Source: Podarcis liolepis
Taxonomy: Eukaryota
Assembly (NCBI GenBank): GCA_965112155.1
Contig: OZ218109.1
DNA: 64,000 bases
Strand: one strand, 5' to 3'
The notes beneath the pieces were generated by a model. The model did no database searches. It saw nothing but the letters and a program-made list of their open reading frames with translations, and had not been told where the DNA came from. The position numbers and the translations under genes are program-made. Shown in pieces: positions 6,303 to 58,202 of this stretch (its first letter is position 1; every line of letters starts with the position of its first letter).

Positions 6303-7912
6303 TCATAGAAAGCTTTCACAGAATCCTAAAATTGTGGATTGGAAGGGACTCAGAGGACCATCCAGTCCAACCCCCTGCAATGCAGAAATCTCAACTAAAG
6401 CATCAGTGACAGATGGCCATCCAACCTCTGCTTTAAAACCTGCAATGAAAGAAAGTCCACCACCTTCTGAAGGAGTCTGTTCCAATGTCAAACTATTGCG
6501 TGGACAGGCGGAGTCCCCAGATCCTGCATGGTTCCCCCGTCATGTGGAATAACGACTCAAGACAACGTGCTATGGGATTAAATTGGCCACAACTTTATTA
6601 AATTTCAAATGTGGGTAGACCTTGGCTCAGGCATTGGGCATCCTCCCTCCCCGGTCCCCAGCCGGGGACCTAGGGAGCATCAGGGTTATCCAGTGTGTGG
6701 GGGGGGGGGGATGGGCCGGCTCTGGAGAACATATGTTCAAGCAGAGATAGCCGCCCCCGTAACGCTGCCGCCGCAGGAGAGAGCAATGACGACCTTTCGG
6801 TGTACGACCAAAGCCTCCCTTCAGAAAACCCCTTTAACGGGGAACCCTGGTATCGCCGCCGCAAGAGGAAGATGGACGAAAGGATTCCGCCCAAGGCCTG
6901 ATACCACCAAAGTTGTGACGTTTTGCTACGGGAAAGGCGAAACCTGCCAATGCAGGGAAATTCCTTTCCGGCCCTTTAACAGCGACCTTAACGTAGCAGC
7001 GCCCGCATACCTGTGAAGAAAAGTTAACCTGCAAAACCTGTGAAGAAAAGTTAACCTGCAAAATAAGGCATTAACTGAGGGTGGGTAGGGTGGAAGAAGC
7101 TCTGGAGCCAAGTGAGGATTCCTAGGTAAGATCCTCCCTCTATTGTGTGGGCAGGTAATCCCTCCCCTACCTGGCCTGGTCTCCTTGGCAACGCTTCCCC
7201 CAGGTGGGATTGGACAACTGACTGAGGTAGGCGGAGACCTCCAGGTATCCCACCTGAGGGAAGGCAAAGCCAAGCCTATGCTGTTGGAGCCACTCCAGAT
7301 CTAGGGGCTGCACGCGTCCACGCAAAGGGCGCCCCCCGTTTTAAGCGGGGAGCGGTCATTCTTACTGTCATGAAGTTGTTCCTGACGTTTAGTCAGAATC
7401 TCCTTTCTTATAACTTGAATCCATTGGTTCAAGTGCTACCCTCCAGAGCAGGAGAAAACAAGCTTGCTCCTTCTTCCATGTGGCAGCCCTTTAGATATTT
7501 GGCAATGGCCATCATATTTCCTCTCAGTAACCTCTTTTCCAGGCTAAACATATGCAGATCCCTCAACTGTTCTTCATAAGTCTTGGTTTCCGGACCCTTG
7601 ATCATCTCGCATGCCCTCCTCTGCACATATCTCAGCCTGTTGATATCTTTCTTAAATTGTGGTGCCCAGAACTGTTCTGTGGCACCCAGGTGTAGTCTGA
7701 CCAAGGCAGAATAGAGTGGTACTATTACTTCCCTTGATCTGGACGCGATACTTATGTTGATGCAGCCTAGAATAGCATTAGTTGTTTTTTGTTTTGTTTT
7801 TTGCTGCTACTGCTGCTGCATCACACTGTTGACCCATGTTAAGCTTGTGGTCTATTAAGACCCTAGGTCCTTTTCACATGTGCTACAGGTCTCCACCATC
7901 CTATAATTGTGC
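6303..7912 (-). mobile_element. CR1 LINE 3' fragment (RT C-terminus and 3' UTR), split by element A at 6496-7357
   Basis: ORF 7429-7704 reads QFWAPQFKKDINRLRYVQRRACEMIKGPETKTYEEQLRDLHMFSLEKRLLRG, typical of the CR1 ORF2 end. 6303-6495 is the CR1 3' tail, and the two halves join as ...TGTCAAACTATTCTTACTGTC. Confidence 0.9.
6496..7357 (-). mobile_element. Element A: unclassified non-coding structured mobile element, CpG-rich and probably young
   Basis: Inserted cleanly into a CR1. Inverted repeats TTGCGTGGAC (6496-6505) and GTCCACGCAA (7316-7325) are followed by the hairpin CGCCCCCCG-TTTTAAG-CGGGGAGCG. AATAAAGTTGTGGCC lies on the minus strand at 6585-6599. It shares motifs with 45229-46024 and 50908-51719. 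Confidence 0.85.
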
Positions 7913-10756: not shown

Positions 10757-10892
10757 CAGAGTTTCCCAAACTTGGGTCTCCAGCTATTTTAGAACTACAG
10801 CTCCCATCTTCCCTAGCTAGCAGGACCAGTGGTCAGGGATTATGGAAACTGTAGTCCAAAAACAGCTGGAGACCCACGTTTGGGAAACTCTG
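10757..10892. mobile_element. hAT-type palindromic MITE
   Basis: TIR CAGAGTTTCCCAAAC; 8-bp TSD CCACAGAG/CCATAGAG. Confidence 0.9.
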
Positions 10893-13728: not shown

Positions 13729-14319
13729 CAGTGGTACTTCGGGTTACATACGCTTCAGGTTACAGACTCCGCTAACCCGGAAATATTACCTCGGGTTAAG
13801 AACTTTGCTTTAGGATGAGAACAGAAATTGTGCTCCGGCGGCGTGGCAGCAGTGGGAGGCCCCATTAGCTAAAGTGATGCTTCAGGTTAAGAACAGTTTC
13901 AGGTTAAGAACAGACCTCCAGAACGAATTAAGTACAGTGGTGCCCCGCAAAACGAATGCCTCGCAAGACGGAAAACCCGCTAGACGAAAGGGTTTTCCAT
14001 TTTTGAGCTGCTTCGCAAGACGATTTTCCCTATGGGCTTGCTTTGCAAGACGAAAACGTCTTGCGAGTGTTCCGATTTTTTTTCGCTTCCCCCCCTTTTT
14101 CTAAGCCGCTAAGCCGCTAATAGCCTTTTAGCCGGTAATCCGCTAAGCCTTTAATAGCCGCTAAGCCTTTAATAGCCGCTAAACCGCTAATAGCGCTAAT
14201 CCGCTAAGCTGCTAATAGGGTTGCTTCGCAAGACGAAAAAACCGCTAGATGAAGAGACTCGCGGAATGGATTATTTTCGTCTTGCGATGCACCACTGGAC
14301 TTAACCCGAGGTACCACTG
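13729..14319. mobile_element. Tc1/mariner MITE hosting a nested MITE
   Basis: TIR CAGTGGTACTTCGGGTTA/TAACCCGAGGTACCACTG with a TA TSD. Confidence 0.9.
13935..14297. mobile_element. Nested Tc1/mariner MITE (second subfamily) with internal GCCGCTAA tandem repeats
   Basis: TIR CAGTGGTGCCCCGCAA/TTGCGATGCACCACTG inserted at a TA of the host MITE. Repeated CGCAAGACG motifs and a GCCGCTAA array at ~14102-14216. Confidence 0.85.
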
Positions 14320-16104: not shown

Positions 16105-16700
16105 GGGTACCTGGCAGGATGGAAAGAACTGAAAGGGGTTCAGAAGAGGGCAGCAAAGATGGCTGGGGAGGGGGGAAGAAGTCTTATGAGGAAAGGCAGA
16201 AGGAACTCAATATGTTTCTCCTGAAGAGGACGAGGTAGGGCATGGCAGCACTCTTCAAATACAGTGGTACCTTGGGTTAAGTACTTAATTCATTCTGGAG
16301 GTCCGTTCTTAACCTGAAACTGTTCTTCACCTGAAGCACCACTTTAGCTAATGGGGCCTCCTGCTGCTGCCGCACCAAGCACGATTTCTGTTTTCATCCT
16401 GAAGCAAAGTTCTTAACCCAAGGAACTATTTCTGGGTTAGCGGAGTCTGTAACCTGAAGCATATGTAACCCGAGGTACCACTTTACCTGAAGGACCCATC
16501 ACATAAAAAAGGACAAAGACTTGTATTCTCTGCTGCCATGGACTGGATCTGATAGCCTTAAATTTTGTTGAACTTTAGGAGAAACTTCTTAATGGTAAGA
16601 GCTGTTTGACAATAGAACCAATTGCCTAAGAAGGTGGGCTTTCCCTCATTGGAAGTCTTTGAGAATGTACTAGTTCTAGATTGCCTACATAAAACACAGG
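16105..16700 (+). mobile_element. Old CR1 LINE 3' fragment split by a MITE at 16262-16483
   Basis: Contains GTTCAGAAGAGGGCAGCAAAGATG (VQKRAAKM), TCTTATGAGGAAAGG (SYEER), CTCTTCAAATA|CCTGAAGG and AGGAGAAACTTCTTAATGGTAAGAGCTGTT. Confidence 0.75.
16262..16483. mobile_element. Tc1/mariner (pogo/Tigger-like) MITE, opposite orientation to the copies at 13240 and 13729
   Basis: TIR CAGTGGTACCTTGGGTTA...TAACCCGAGGTACCACTT with a TA TSD. Confidence 0.9.
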
Positions 16701-30902: not shown

Positions 30903-31038
30903 CAGTGTTCCCCAACCTTGGGCCTCCAGCTGTTTTTGGACTACAACTCCCATCATCCTTGACCACTGGTCTTGCTAGCGAGGGATGATGGGAGTTGTAG
31001 TCCAAAAACAGCTGGAGGCCCAAGGTTGGGGAACACTG
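30903..31038. mobile_element. Young hAT-type palindromic MITE
   Basis: Long, near-perfect TIRs starting CAGTGTTCCCCAACCTTGGG; perfect 8-bp TSD CTTTAGGA at 30895-30902 and 31039-31046. Confidence 0.95.
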
Positions 31039-35875: not shown

Positions 35876-36043
35876 GAGGGCCATAGCTCAATGATAGAGA
35901 ATCTGCCTCGCACACAGAAGTTCCCAGGTTCAATTCCTGGCATCTCTAGTTAGGGCTGAGAGACCCCATTTGAAATCCTGCCAATCAGTGCAGACAATAC
36001 TGAGCTAGATGGACCAATGGCCTGATGCGGTATAAGGAAGCTT
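35876..36043 (+). mobile_element. Squam2-like tRNA-derived SINE; its tail resumes at 36646
   Basis: TAGCTCAATGAT A-box, GGTTCAATTCC B-box and CR1-like tail GAGCTAGATGGACCAATGG...TATAAGGAAGCTT|CCTATATTC. Confidence 0.8.
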
Positions 36044-45228: not shown

Positions 45229-46024
45229 AAGCGTGTCCTCCCTAAAAAAGGGCATGTGTTGTGGTGAGACCTGGAGACTGACCTCCTGATTGTGGGTGGG
45301 TATATTGGACAGCCACAACACCCGACTGGTAGGTCCCTTGTTGCTGGGTTTAATCTGGCCAATGGGGAGCTGTTTAAATGGACTGAGGGACCTATATATA
45401 CCTATGCATGTGACCCAGAGCTTCCTCTTTTGGCTTGTGCATCGGAACACCCGCCCACCTCTCCCTATATTTAGGGCTTGTTGCGCTTGACCTTGCTATG
45501 CCGTCATGTGTCATCTGTCGTTGGGACAGGGGCACAGCAGGAATTTTCCCCACTTGGCTGATTGGTTGTTGCCATTTGGGTTTCGCCTGCTGCGTAGCAA
45601 ATCGTCACAACTTGTAAGGTTGTGGATAGGCACTGGTTCAGGTGATAGGGATGGGAGAACGGTCTCACCATCCCTATGTGAAGGGTATTCCGTTAAAGGA
45701 ATCCAGGGACTCAACTTGGTTTGGTCAACCCTTGAGAGGGGGTTGTGCCCGTGCCTGAGTCCAGGAGAGCATCTGGGGAGCGTACATAGTCCATTCCTGG
45801 GCTTTCCACCTACCTCAGGTGTTCACCCTTGGCTGACCTATGATAGAGCTCTGGGTCAGCACTACCTGCAAGGGTGCAGGGAGCTAGTCGAACCAGAGCC
45901 TATGCAACCACTCACTTTCTGTAATCAATAAAGTTGAGGCCTAAATTCTGCCAAAAACCAAAACTAAAATTTGAGTCAAATGTGTTTTTATTTAGGGGGG
46001 AAGTCTGTGGGTCTGAACACACAA
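45229..46024 (+). mobile_element. Element B: unclassified non-coding structured mobile element (A/B/C family)
   Basis: 5' hairpin GCGTGTCCT...AGGGCATGT, imperfect inverted repeats TTGTGGTGAGACC / GGTCTGAACACACAA and AATAAAGTTGAGGCC at 45927-45941. The block 45425-45640 aligns with 51098-51310. Confidence 0.8.
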
Positions 46025-47659
46025 ATAAATGCCTTTTGAAAGGGGAAATCATTGCAAGGGGAGTTGTGTTGCTGTCCCTGATTATGTCACAAACAATATC
46101 CAATCAGTGCTTTTGCCATTCAGTCTACCGGATTCCATTCAGCATTCACAAGAGCAACAAATGTGATGCAGTGGACTTACAGGGTACTTTATGCAATATG
46201 AACAAAGTACCGAGTTTTGGATATTCAAAAAATGTGATGCCCAACCCTCAACAAAAAGGCAGGATGTGTGGAGTGCATGCGACATACGTCATGCGGATGT
46301 GCAGGTTGGGAGGTTGTTGTGTCTGGGAGTGACCTCTGCACAGCTCCCTGGGTGGTCCAACCGGGCTCAGTGTTAGGAGGGGGCTGTGGAGTGACACAGC
46401 GATGTCCCAACTCTTGCACCACTTCCTACAGCACTACAAAGAGCCATGTTTGGGCATGCAGTCTGGGAGACACACAGCACAGTGGAGTAAATAATCCATT
46501 TCCCAAAGTTATTTGTCTTGACTCTTCTTTGGCATATTACTAGCTTCTGTATCAGGTGCTCTGGAACTTTGGGAGCTGAGACTTTCATAAGGGATAAGTC
46601 CTGTAAGTACAAACATGACAACATTGGGATGACAGCGAGTACCCTTGCAAACAGCATCATAATGATCAACCACAGAGACTTAAGTGTGAAGATCTCGGTT
46701 GCTATGAATAGATGTTCTTCTGCATTTCTCCACAAATTATGAAGAGTTGAAATGGCAACTTCTCAGCAGTACATTCACCCTGGAAGTAGAATATTTATAA
46801 GGCAGCTGTGCTCTCTAGCTAACCAAGAACATTATGTCTGGAAACATCTGGTTCAGAGCTACACTTGAGGGATGACCCGGGAAGATTTCATTGTAGACAA
46901 ACTTTTATATTTGCAATAAAATATATTTGAACAGCATAGCCCAAACACTGATAATCTATGATCTCACTCCACTGTTTTTGCCACCGATCAAGGGGTTTAG
47001 CTGGGTAGCTAATTATGAGTTTCTTGCAAAGTCTAATCCATCCTCAGAACAGATGCAATTCATGTGCATTGCTTATCTACTTTCCTGATTGCAACATTTA
47101 ATATTGCACAGCAACATGTAATAATTGGTAGCTGCCAGTGGATGCATACTCCATGATGTTCATTAGATTACAGCATGTATTGCAGGCAATGTGTTAGGAT
47201 GGTTGAACAATGGATGAAAACCACCATTTCCAGAAAGGTATGTTAAAGTAAAGTCTTCTGTAATCCATAGTGCATTGTAAAATTGCATGACAAAAACACA
47301 GATGAAAAGTGAAATAACAGAATTTGACATATCCTGGCAGAGCCACTGGTTCCTGATGACACACTCTTTCTTCCATTTAGATGCTGACAGTATCTCAACA
47401 GAAATCTATTTGACAATAATGCCCTACAGAAAACTTAACTATGTAAACACTATAAAAAAATGCAACTATCCAAAACCGTCTGAGATGTCTTAACCTGCAT
47501 TTATCTGGCTCACAGCAAAAAATAAATAAAAAATGGATAAACCACCCTCCGTCTATGGGCTTTGACTAAGATTTATCTGAAATCATTGGCAACCACAGTG
47601 AAAGCCCACATGATATTTTGTATCACTTTGGTTGACTTCATTATTCATACATACGGTAC

Positions 47660-50711: not shown

Positions 50712-50893
50712 ATAGATTGGTGCCCAAATTGTTAGACCTGGGACTTCCACCATGTTTGTGCAGTGTTGAGCATGTAGTTTTTATGTAGTTTTATGTAGTT
50801 TTGTGGTAGTTTTATGTAGTTTTTATGTAGTTTTATGTAGTTTTTCAATTTCATTGTTCCACAAGGGACAATGACAATAAAGATATCGTATAT
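50712..50893 (+). mobile_element. Internally deleted Rex1/Babar LINE fragment with an (ATGTAGTTTT)n minisatellite
   Basis: The peptide LVPKLLDLGLPPCLC (Rex1-type RT motif KL..LGL...LC) is joined to the Rex1-like 3' end CAATTTCATTG...ACAATGACAATAAAG. Tandem repeat at 50771-50845. Confidence 0.6.
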
Positions 50894-50907
50894 CGGGGGG
50901 GGGGGGG

Positions 50908-51719
50908 AGCGTGTTCTCTTTCATAGAGAGCACGTGTTGCGGTGGGGTCTGACAGGCCACCCCACTGTTGCTGGGCGGGTTAGTATGGATGACCATCCAC
51001 AGTGATTGGACGGTTGGGTTACTGGGCAAATTTTGGTGTTGCCATTTAGGGGGAGGGACCAAAGGTTATAAAATCAAGTCACGCAGCACTGACTGGGCTC
51101 TTTTGCTGCGTGCATCGGATCACCCACCCACCCTCCCTCATCTAGGGCTATTGCGTTGACCTTGCTATGCCTGTCATGGGGTCGTCTGCTTTTGGGGCAG
51201 GGGCCTGGTAGGAATTTTGTCCATATGGCTGATTGGCTGGTGCTATTTGGTTTTTGCCTACTGCGTAGCAAATCGCCACAACTTGTAAGGTTGCGGTTAG
51301 GCATTGGTTAAAAAATTGGTTGGTGGAGGGGTAAGGACTGGCGGTGCCTGCCCCTCCAATGCTGCTGCAGCAAGGGAATTCCATTAAAGGAATCCAGGGG
51401 CTTGCCATTCTTTCGTCCATACCCCTGAATGGGGCTTAGGGCCACGCAAGCCCCTGGGAGCATGAAGGGGGGGGTGAGGGTCTGGTGCCGGCTCCATGCT
51501 CTCCCCAATATTGTTTTCCCTTACTGGCTTTCGCTGGAATCCGGAAGTCAGTTCTGTCCCTGGGCGTGGGGACAGATAGTTGGAACCAATGCCTAAACAA
51601 TCACTCACATTTATGTATTTTAATAAAGTTGTGGCCAAAGTTATGCCAAAAACCTTAAACAAAAATTATATGTGAATTGTGAATTATTTAGGGGTGGCTT
51701 GGGGGACCTCAACACGCAA
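50908..51719 (+). mobile_element. Element C: unclassified non-coding structured mobile element (A/B/C family)
   Basis: 5' hairpin GCGTGTTCTCT-TTCAT-AGAGAGCACGT, imperfect inverted repeats TTGCGGTGGGGTC / GACCTCAACACGCAA, TATAAAA at 51067-51073 and AATAAAGTTGTGGCC at 51622-51636. Confidence 0.85.
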
Positions 51720-53557
51720 ACCACCTTGAGTTCTTTGAAGAAAAAGAAGGGATATAGAAGCAATGAATAAATAAAAATACTGATCAGGATTTTAGTAGTA
51801 CATTTAGCCTAGGAAACTTCACTTAAAAACAAACAAACCAGGAATTTTTATGATGGCTAAATAGCAGCTAAGCTTCCTGGAGTGGGTACTTGCCTGATCC
51901 TCAGTTAGGTGGTGGCTGTAATCAGACTTCTGCTCCCATGCAGAATAATTAACGGAACAGAGAGCCAAAAAAAAAAAAAAAAAAAAGAAAAGAAAGGAAA
52001 ATGTCCCCAGCCCTATTAAATTTCCACTGAATTAGCCCCTCAGAAAGGAAGCTGTCTTGCAAAATGACTGCCTTTTACAGATTAAAAAAAGCAACTGGCT
52101 ATGTCAAGGACAGTGGAAAGGAAGCAGGGTTCAGTAACAAGAATTCCAACTCAAAAGGGGTTATCGTGTGCCAGTTCTCTGATGGAGAATTTATCCACGC
52201 AAAGGTCAGGCACTCATTAAACCTTATCTGATGCCAAAGTTATATATTATGGTTTATTGCCTCGAGTACCAATTAATAAAGAATTAAAGAAATGAAGAAA
52301 CCAGTGATTCATACCTTTTGTGTGGGGGGGGAAGCTCATGGTTCAGCATAATGCTAAAATATTAATAGTAATTTTAGTCGTGTAGTATTTTATTAGGCAC
52401 TTAACTCTGTAGGTTTTATCGAAAGATATATGGGATTCATTTTTAACAAAATGCAGAAATTTGGGGGAAGGGAGGTACATTGACTCAAAATCTAATAAGA
52501 GGAGATTCCAGAGATATTTTGAAAGGGGGGGAGCTTAAACATTACCATTGATTATTAATAAAGAATTACTTAATAATAATAATGGGCTTAAGAAGGGACC
52601 GTTACAAAGGGCTGGAAAATTCCACAATGATTTTTCCACAGTGTTCTTAGAAGGAAGCTCACAGCTCTAGGAGTCATATACACTGGTACTACAAAAAAAC
52701 TATTGTATACCACATATCTGGTGTAAGGTAATTTACTGTACAACTTTCAAACATTTCTGCTTTGCTTTCAGGTGATTTCAAGTGATAGCAAAGTCCCGTC
52801 TGTGGTGACTGATCTGTAAAAGCTCATTTCCATGGGCAAGTAATAACTTGCCATTGCAGCCACAAAGTGATAAACCTGCGTGTGTGAAAGCTCACCTTTA
52901 TAGACACTCATATTCTTCTCGGATGTTCGCTGTCAATAGCATGTGCTGCAAGCCACAACCTTACAGTCTGAACTACTGTCTGGTAAAATATATATATATT
53001 GTAGTGCTAGCAGGCACTAGATGGTTGGCTTTATTTTAGTATTTGCTAAGCTTCCCCCCTGAGTCCAGTTGGTTTGTGGCTGTGGAAGGCTCTATGGGGG
53101 AGGGGAATTGGGGGTCGAGGAGGGTCATTGGGGGGGGGAGTGAGAAATGTTCCTATTCTCATCTAATGGAATGTTAGAGGGTATGTTACCATAATGCCAC
53201 AGTTGGTGGTAGGAGAAGGTAGAAGCAACACCAGAGCAGGGAGCAGCCAATGTCTGATTTTGTCAGATAGAGAGACCAGCATTGGGAAGTCCATAAAAGT
53301 GCGTATTTCAAACGCTGGCTGTGTTCTGATTTGAATTGTTTTGGAAAATTTGAATTCTGTAGGCTCGCCTTTAAATGCAAAGTAAATTGAATTTCTCCCC
53401 CCATGGCTAGAAGTGGATCAGTAAGGGCTTCCGACAACCAATTATTTGAGAATAGCAATAACTAAAAGGCTTCCCCTCCCTTGAAATTAGGCTGCTGAAA
53501 TGACCAACATTGGAGGGGGACCAGGAGGGAGAAAATAGGAGGACTGTGAATCAGTAC

Positions 53558-57234: not shown

Positions 57235-58082
57235 GTTGTTGTTGTTCAGTCGTTTAGTCGTGTCCGACTCTTCGTGACCCCATGGACCAGAGAACGCCAG
57301 GCACTCCTGTCTTCCACTGCCTACCGCAGTTTGGTCAAACTCAGGCTGGTAGCTTCGAGAACACTGTCCAACCATCTCGTCCTCTGTCGTCCCCTTCTCC
57401 TTGTGCCCTCCATCTTTCCCAACATCAGGGTCTTTTGCAGGGAGTCTTATCTTCTCATGAGGTGGCCAAAGTATTGGAGCCTCAGCTTCAGGATCTGTCC
57501 TTCCAGTGAGCACTCAGGGCTGATTTCCTTAAGAATGGATAGGTTTGATCTTCTTGCAGTCCATGGGACTCTCAAGAGTCTCTTCCATCACCATAATTCA
57601 AAAGCATCAATTCTTCAGCGATCGGCCTTCTTTATGGTCCAGCTCTCACTTCCATACATCACTACTGGGGAAACCATGGCTTTAACTATATAGGTCTTTG
57701 TTGGCAAGGTGATGTCTCTGCTTTTTAAGATGCTGTCTAGGTTTGTCATTGCTTTTCTCCCAAGAAGCAGGGGTCTTTTAATTTCGTGACTGCTGTCACC
57801 ATCTGCAGTGATCATGGAGCCCAAGAAAGTAAAATCTCTCATTGCCTCCATTTCTTCCCCTTCTATTTGCCAGGAGGTGATGGGCCCAGTGGCCATGATC
57901 TTAGTTTTTTTGATGTTGAGCTTCAGACCATATTTTGCGCTTTCCTCTTTCACCCTCATTAAAAGGTTCTTTAATTCCTCCTCACTTTCTGCCATCAAGG
58001 TTGTGTCATCTGCATATCTGAGGTTGTTGATATTTCTTCTGGCAATCTTAATTCCGGCTTGGGATTCATCCAGCCCAGCCTT
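57235..58082 (-). mobile_element. 5'-truncated RTE-BovB LINE (RT domain to 3' end)
   Basis: ORF 57615-58094 reads AGIKIARRNINNLRYADDTTLMAESEEELKNLLMRVKEESAKYGLKLNIKKTKIM (YADD RT motif). The 3' end is GGGGTCACGAAGAGTCGGACACGACT followed by (CAA)n. Confidence 0.97.
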
Positions 58083-58202
58083 AAAAGCAGTCATTAAATA
58101 TATAAATTAGATAAAGGATATTGCTGTCAAAGTCATATCATTTAAATATTTATATTATTGTTACTAAGGGCATCAGGTCTACTTCCTCTGGAAGTGAGTA
58201 GT

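What the first reader, a model, noticed from the sequence alone, without database searches (positions are those of the whole stretch)
6910..6998. Minimal version of the same junction in element A, with compensatory changes
Seen on the minus strand: P1 TGCTACG/CGTAGCA; P2 GGTC-G-CT-GTTAA-AG-GGCC; P3 GGAAAGG/CCTTTCC (versus CAGCAGG/CCTGCTG in B and GGTAGG/CCTACT in C); internal loop AATTTC // TTTCG; cap CCTGC-ATTG-GCAGG; then AAAACGTCACAACTT, which is close to the sequence in B and C. Stems changed in sequence and length while the loop residues (AGGAATTT, ATTG, TTT(C/T)GCCT) were kept. This is the pattern expected of a functional RNA motif, and it defines a ~75-nt minimal core.
Basis: seen in the sequence. 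Interest (0 to 1): 0.75.

Follow-up and report, generated by a model that had tools for sequence, protein, structure and literature searches.

The report
Conserved RNA junction in retrotransposon repeat
Three otherwise very different copies of a repeated element, likely leftover ends of a reptile jumping gene, keep the same predicted three-armed RNA fold through paired letter changes, and the fold is predicted to sit beside the element's poly(A) signal, so it is a likely control signal in a transposon class whose copying is poorly understood.

Summary
Every stem and loop named is at 6910-6998 (minus strand), and units B and C fold alone into the same three-way junction. Of 24 core pairs, A and B differ at 8 and keep all 8, seven by changes on both sides. 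A structure model built from B and C only finds A at 48.5 bits, against 17.9 without structure.

The host unit (7357-6495, 863 nt) is a high-copy, non-coding mobile repeat with one shared triplet at its ends and rare head-to-tail junctions. It is most likely a solo A-B repeat of a Ngaro-like retrotransposon; no coding region was linked, and Helitron2 fits the ends too.

The 75-nt core is not self-contained. Its tail is complementary to the bases beside AATAAA 315-342 nt downstream, and a second long-range helix covaries.

Function is untested. The test on A-like copies was inconclusive, C folds poorly in context, and the conserved ATTG is also a CCAAT box. No Rfam family matches.

The parts
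6495..7357 (-). Unit A, 863-nt non-coding mobile repeat (likely solo A-B repeat), counted with one copy of the shared AAT triplet; the second AAT is at 7358-7360
   Evidence: depth edges and head-to-tail joint; removing it restores a gap-free match to a paralogue of the host repeat at 16571-16659
6924..6998 (-). Three-way junction core P1/P2/P3 with U-rich internal loop and cap hairpin
6910..6920 (-). Conserved tail; complementary to the bases at and after AATAAA, and alternatively to bases just upstream of P1
6888..6901 (-). 5' strand of long-range helix P4
   Evidence: 13 of 14 cells paired in A; 5 columns with both sides changed among A, B, C; predicted probability 1.00
6627..6640 (-). 3' strand of P4, ending about 30 nt before AATAAA
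6585..6599 (-). Poly(A) signal AATAAA and conserved GTTGTGGCC, partner of the tail
   Evidence: only sense-strand AATAAA in each unit; aligned
6831..6839 (-). Conserved C(G/A)TTAAAGG hairpin motif
7327..7357 (-). 5'-terminal hairpin
7298..7325 (-). Subterminal stretch complementary to the 3' end (6496-6523); with the terminal hairpin it makes the head-to-tail junction a long hairpin
45231..46025 (+). Unit B (junction core 45494-45599, TATA near 45393, AATAAA 45927), AAA on both sides
50909..51720 (+). Unit C (junction core 51163-51270, TATAAA near 51067, AATAAA 51622); right end AAA, left flank a G run

Best explanation
The stretch is predicted to fold, in sense-strand RNA, into a three-way junction kept by compensatory changes in three diverged units of a high-copy non-coding mobile repeat, likely solo A-B repeats of a Ngaro-like tyrosine-recombinase retrotransposon, where it would act as a protein-docking signal beside the poly(A) site. 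Shown: the sequence, the covariation, the unit's ends, its high copy number and the head-to-tail junction. Predicted: the tail pairs with the bases at and after AAUAAA 315-342 nt away, and helix P4 closes the intervening domain, so the junction lies next to the poly(A) signal. Inferred: in an A1-ORFs-B1-A2-B2 element only B2 has an A repeat directly upstream, so a signal in A could license 3'-end formation at B2 but not B1, and mark that RNA end for the element's own Gag or reverse transcriptase. The invariant U-rich internal loop would be the bound surface. The tail has two or three possible partners, so it may work as a switch. Odds by step: fold real and selected 0.85; host is a split-repeat YR retrotransposon 0.6; function tied to 3'-end formation or recognition about 0.5 given those.
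For: Same junction in separate folds of A, B and C. RNAalifold on an unedited alignment recovers P3 with both-sided changes in 4 of 7 columns. A versus B: 16 same, 1 one-sided, 7 both-sided, 0 broken of 24 pairs; neutral simulation P 0.001-0.008. Model from B+C scores A 48.5 bits, E 7e-11, versus 17.9 with no structure and 27.6 with a mis-registered structure. Whole units fold better than shuffles on the sense strand (z about -4.5 to -5.5, 12 shuffles each) and 12-59 kcal/mol better than antisense. P4 has 5 both-sided columns. The tail's best downstream partner is at the poly(A) signal in all three (0, 19 and 0 of 300 shuffles reach it). Sharp ends, 9855 and 6324 contigs laid, head-to-tail joint with 3 shared letters in 2 DNA runs and 2 RNA reads. 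Empty site restored with one triplet. Solo AB repeats of Ngaro are described (PMC8547959, passages), and so are shared junction trinucleotides of DIRS (PMC7192593, passages). Poly(A) control by RNA structure is described for retroviruses (PMC12789967, passages).
Against: Only three sequences, two of them (B, C) close; helices were registered by hand after seeing them; B versus C alone is mostly not significant (P 0.02-0.3; 63 of 500 shuffles). In C the junction has predicted probability only about 0.06-0.11 for P1 and P3 in long context. The tail:poly(A) helix has no both-sided change and probability 0.01 in B. Among A-like copies, 1 of 5 displayed variants in the core breaks a P3 pair with no partner change displayed. 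No YR or RT coding region was linked, and no B1 boundary was shown. RNA reads are few (132 of 12.8 million; 20 of 11.0 million), lie in both directions, mostly run on into other sequence and show no pile-up of ends. A has no TATA match.
Confidence: 0.45

Rival explanations
1. The units are non-autonomous Helitron2/Helentron rolling-circle elements, and the junction is a folded signal or captured UTR piece inside them.
For: Read on the other strand, the ends match the published geometry: one inverted repeat 0-2 bp from one end and its partner about 30 bp from the other, just before a terminal hairpin (PMC3627910, passages). An insertion between two T's gives the same letters as a shared triplet. 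Head-to-tail junctions would also arise from circles (recalled).
Against: The inverted repeats pair over 25-34 positions across the join, longer than the 8-15 bp described. In B and C the strand that folds better (by 21-22 kcal/mol at the junction) is the one with the hairpin at its 5' end. CCAAT and TATA boxes (B, C) and a conserved AATAAA make the units look like retroelement repeats.
Confidence: 0.15
2. The units are solo LTRs of an ordinary Gypsy or endogenous-retrovirus family, and the junction is an R-region leader element (packaging, export or poly(A) control).
For: Promoter-to-poly(A) layout and length of about 800 nt. B and C can be read as TGT...ACA three bases inside the ends chosen here.
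Against: A has no TG...CA ends; the empty site shows a 3-bp, not 4-6-bp, duplication; 47 contigs beyond the 5' end agree only 0.36, so no common purine tract shows; head-to-tail junctions form a long conserved hairpin.
Confidence: 0.12
3. The conserved letters are DNA binding sites for transcription factors (reverse CCAAT box, kB-like site, CRE-like half site) and the fold is incidental to a generally hairpin-rich repeat.
For: ATTGG in the cap is a reverse CCAAT box in all three units, and A and B match a kB-like pattern (consensus patterns recalled). The whole unit is hairpin-rich.
Against: It does not explain four adjacent both-sided changes in P3, the P4 covariation or the gain from structure in the held-out model. 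C lacks the kB-like match.
Confidence: 0.1
4. The junction is an unknown self-cleaving ribozyme and the units replicate like retrozymes through tandem or circular RNA.
For: Three-way junction with invariant loop letters; 2 RNA reads cross the head-to-tail junction; whole units are strongly folded.
Against: No Rfam match over the motif even at E 10; no hammerhead or hairpin core pattern in any unit on either strand; no pile-up of RNA ends (low depth); a conserved poly(A) signal suggests ordinary 3' ends.
Confidence: 0.07
5. The junction is an epsilon-like signal on which the element's reverse transcriptase starts DNA synthesis without a tRNA primer, independent of poly(A) control.
For: The primer of DIRS-order elements is unknown, and a 3' hairpin has been suggested (PMC7192593, passages). 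The motif lies in a part that would be repeated at both RNA ends. The analogy with hepatitis B epsilon is recalled, not from a call.
Against: No test here bears on priming; the fold and loop do not match any Rfam family.
Confidence: 0.1

Closest known systems
Solo AB repeats of Ngaro retrotransposons (PMC8547959) and SIRE, the A2-B2 part of VIPER (PMC6681497)
   Same: Isolated non-coding unit; head-to-tail (B-A type) junction exists; no 4-6-bp duplication.
   Different: At 795-863 nt it is longer than A+B of Xenopus DIRS-53_XT (236+152 bp, PMC9210276). No full-length copy was seen here. The passages read describe no RNA structure in the repeats.
DIRS-like elements with an internal complementary region (PMC7192593)
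   Same: An internal stretch complementary to both extremities; a shared trinucleotide at both ends.
   Different: The complementary stretch lies directly behind the 5'-terminal hairpin; no long inverted terminal repeats around genes.
Helitron2/Helentron non-autonomous elements (PMC3627910)
   Same: Asymmetric inverted repeats next to a terminal hairpin; T-rich insertion point.
   Different: Longer repeats, opposite strand preferred in folding, internal promoter and poly(A) layout, conserved internal RNA helices.
Retroviral R-region structures that control polyadenylation (HIV-1 poly(A) stem-loop; HTLV/BLV long R fold; PMC12789967)
   Same: RNA structure predicted to pair with or approach AAUAAA in a terminal repeat.
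   Different: No sequence or structural homology; here a three-way junction reaches the signal over 315-342 nt; function untested.

Membership tests
Ngaro-like YR retrotransposon | Split direct repeats A1-ORFs-B1-A2-B2 | tested here: inconclusive
   Head-to-tail junction in 2 of 2 DNA runs and 1 of 2 RNA runs; no full-length copy. The loose end at 6615 resembles A's own upstream sequence by eye, so it does not prove a B1 boundary.
Ngaro-like YR retrotransposon | Gag, RT/RNase H and tyrosine recombinase genes | not testable with these tools
   No genome held. 16 of the window's 104 ORFs of 85 aa or more (15 of them, plus one of 78 aa) were scanned; the only Pfam hit is an RT fragment at 57618-58106, outside the units.
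Ngaro-like YR retrotransposon | Isolated AB repeats scattered in the genome | tested here: inconclusive
   Three isolated units in 64 kb and thousands of contigs, but the A/B split was not located.
YR retrotransposons (DIRS order) | Same short triplet at both ends and at the circle junction | tested here: met
   AAT/AAT in A with the empty site restored, AAA/AAA in B, 3 shared letters at the joint. C's left end has only one A after a G run.
DIRS-like elements | Long inverted terminal repeats plus an ICR near the right repeat | tested here: not met
   Only a 25-34-pair complementarity next to the 5' hairpin.
Helitron2/Helentron | Asymmetric terminal inverted repeats beside a terminal hairpin | tested here: met
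   Geometry fits on the opposite strand, though the repeats are longer than 8-15 bp.
Helitron2/Helentron | RepHel-encoding autonomous partner with the same ends | not testable with these tools
   No genome held.
Gypsy/ERV solo LTR | TG...CA ends with a 4-6-bp target duplication | tested here: not met
   B and C have TGT...ACA three bases inside their ends, A does not.
Hammerhead or hairpin ribozyme | Catalytic core sequence | tested here: not met
   Pattern scan of the three units on both strands (patterns recalled) and Rfam.
Any Rfam family | Match at gathering score | tested here: not met
   0 of 4227 families over the motif; the 8 matches up to E 10 in 6400-7450 all lie outside it.

The most novel reading that the evidence does not exclude
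Reptile Ngaro-like retrotransposons carry an undescribed RNA device: a three-way junction with a switchable tail that pairs with the poly(A) signal, picks the distal AAUAAA and docks the reverse transcriptase for tRNA-independent priming, while the head-to-tail junction folds into a long hairpin that presents the recombinase crossover triplet from a single strand. This would supply the missing cis-signals of split-repeat retrotransposons.
Probability: 0.15. Interest if true: 0.8.

Novelty: new variant of a known kind. Interest (0 to 1): 0.48.

Why it matters
How tyrosine-recombinase retrotransposons prime reverse transcription is unknown (PMC7192593, passages), and how split-repeat elements skip their first poly(A) signal was not addressed in the passages I read. 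A covarying RNA junction in the repeated region, short enough to probe, gives a direct handle on both questions and a structural marker for finding diverged families. If it is only a leader element of a selfish repeat, the interest is limited to transposon specialists.

Tried and rejected
Rfam: nothing over the motif.

No own genome is held.

Exact-pattern scans: 0 hits in viral contigs, 0 in genome contigs, 1 in metagenomes (L001) and 11 in viral contigs for a 17-letter pattern. None of these 12 loci holds the motif (best E 0.48-0.79), so they were treated as chance.

Protein search with the antisense frame over the motif: 3 candidates, none significant. Pfam on ORFs in the units: none.

No RNA holder was listed in the run index.

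Model R1 was built on a mis-counted structure string by mistake and kept only as a control. The sequence-only search ran as a filtered HMM, so its bits are not strictly comparable.

The loose end at 6615 was first read as a B1 boundary, then rejected as more likely a sibling subfamily.

The window copy's A-T versus the family's G-C at 6529/7292 looks compensatory, but both are CpG decay sites, so it was not counted.

B's ends were one base off and corrected.

Paper searches showed no description of this motif. I saw listings and abstract starts for most papers; passages for PMC9210276, PMC8547959, PMC6681497, PMC7192593, PMC4350176, PMC4157794, PMC3627910 and PMC12789967; and 0 term hits in PMC3783388. 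No supplements were read. Repbase and Dfam could not be searched, so the repeat family itself may already be catalogued.

Earlier-note searches by sequence found nothing.

Full report
Observation. The minus strand at 6910-6998 reads as described, and ViennaRNA gives that junction as both minimum-energy and centroid structure. Its stability alone is modest: z -1.8 (12 of 200 shuffles as good) for 111 nt and z -2.7 for 95 nt. B and C were located at 45231-46025 and 50909-51720 on the plus strand. Folded alone, their motifs give the same topology, with z -3.5 for B but -0.3 for C. No fourth copy was found in the window (next best E 1.3).

Is it more than chance? RNAalifold on an unedited alignment recovers P3 with both sides changed in 4 of 7 columns, although it mis-aligns P1. 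With hand-registered helices (24 pairs), A versus B has 16 identical, 1 one-sided, 7 both-sided and 0 broken pairs; A versus C has 16/2/5/1; B versus C has 19/2/2/1. A neutral simulation at the same changed columns gives P 0.001-0.008 for A-B, 0.002-0.07 for A-C and 0.02-0.3 for B-C. As a held-out test, a model from B and C only scores A at 48.5 bits (E 7e-11), against 17.9 bits without structure and 27.6 with a mis-registered structure (E-values rough, modes not identical). In whole-unit folds P1, P2 and P3 have probability 0.97-1.00 in A and 0.81-0.99 in B, but P1 and P3 reach only about 0.1 in C; all are lower on the antisense strand.

One search displayed 40 of 102 variant rows. Five lie in the core: three unpaired, one keeping a G-U pair in P1, and one breaking an A-U pair in P3 with no partner change displayed. 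With 50 of 75 positions paired and two of the five at CpG sites, this neither supports nor refutes.

The host element. The window looks like squamate DNA; this rests on recalled repeat types, not on a call. 20 of 24 listed runs, from 14 studies and 9 coded organisms, hold part of A. In two DNA runs 9855 and 6324 contigs lay on it and depth collapses outside 6495-7357. Removing 863 nt, with one of two AAT triplets, restores a gap-free match to a paralogue of the interrupted repeat at 16571-16659. B has AAA on both sides; C's left end is a single A after a G run. A joint from 7357 back to 6495 with three shared letters occurs in 2 contigs of X1, 1 of X2 and 2 reads of X23, and in none of X21. 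B and C have CCAAT and TATA boxes about 160 nt in, A has no TATA match, and each unit has one sense AATAAA. No ORF tested in the units matched Pfam. These features fit a solo A-B repeat of a split-repeat YR retrotransposon (PMC8547959; PMC6681497; trinucleotide junctions in PMC7192593; all passages). No coding region was linked, and the terminal geometry also fits Helitron2 (PMC3627910, passages). Membership is therefore likely, not shown.

The core's context. Whole units fold better than shuffles on the sense strand (z about -4.5, -4.6, -5.5; 12 shuffles each) and 12-59 kcal/mol better than antisense, so the junction is the best-conserved part of a generally folded unit. The tail is complementary to the bases at and after AATAAA, 315, 318 and 342 nt away (12 of 12, 9 of 10 and 10 of 10 cells paired). 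It shows no both-sided change, and its predicted probability is 0.81, 0.01 and 0.77. It can also pair just upstream of P1 and, in B and C, with a local hairpin (seen in the sequence). The next helix, P4, has 13 of 14, 13 of 14 and 13 of 13 cells paired, five both-sided columns and probability 1.00. The head-to-tail junction folds into a long hairpin in all three units (-72, -52, -68 kcal/mol; 400 control joins: mean -30, minimum -54.5, 2 at or below -50.9).

Mechanism. I commit to a cis-acting RNA signal. The junction offers an invariant U-rich internal loop to a protein, and the tail and P4 place it beside AAUAAA. In an A1-ORFs-B1-A2-B2 element only B2 follows an A repeat, so this could select the distal poly(A) site and mark the RNA end for Gag or RT. 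Retroviruses solve the same problem with RNA structure and upstream elements (PMC12789967, passages). All functional steps are inference. The RNA data do not show a discrete transcript: 132 of 12.8 million and 20 of 11.0 million reads, both directions, 66-80% running on into other sequence, no pile-up of ends. The conserved ATTGG is also a reverse CCAAT box, so some loop conservation may be DNA-level. No ribozyme core or Rfam family matches.

Novelty. Nine paper searches showed no description of this motif or of RNA structure in Ngaro repeats. The library lacks most subscription papers, no supplements were read, and Repbase and Dfam were not searchable, so the repeat family may be catalogued already. 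Earlier notes on Ngaro solo repeats in other genomes were leads only. Verdict: a real, apparently undescribed structured element in a mobile repeat; new variant of a known kind; interest 0.48.

Noticed in passing
window 6495-6540 with 7283-7357; B and C ends: The head-to-tail junction of all three units folds into a long hairpin with the shared triplet in its stem, despite largely different sequences; a possible single-strand recombinase substrate or end-joining splint.
   Followed up: partly
window 7010-7063 (minus): Exact 27-nt tandem duplication that looks like a splice acceptor, just before the junction; depth dips there and loose ends at 7071 suggest many family copies lack it. No spliced joint was seen.
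   Followed up: partly
window 6831-6839, 45691-45699, 51382-51390: Second conserved motif, a hairpin with a (G/A)TTAAA loop; the P2 loop region of A also reads GTTAAAG.
   Followed up: no
window 6615: Loose ends in X2 and X23 mark a sibling subfamily (or a B1 boundary) that shares only the last 120 nt closely with A.
   Followed up: partly
window 35877-35948 (+): Rfam tRNA match of 39.5 bits; likely a tRNA-derived SINE head or pseudogene.
   Followed up: no
window 57618-58106 (-): Reverse transcriptase fragment (Pfam RVT_1, E 2e-11), not linked to the units.
   Followed up: no
window 30903-31038 and relatives at 10762, 20428, 50288: Short element with a perfect 56-bp inverted repeat, MITE-like, in several copies.
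   Followed up: no
window 14104-14209: Tandem array of AGCCGCTA-like units of 8-18 nt.
   Followed up: no
window 50860-50908: Left flank of C is the tail of another repeat followed by a G run, which hides C's left triplet.
   Followed up: no
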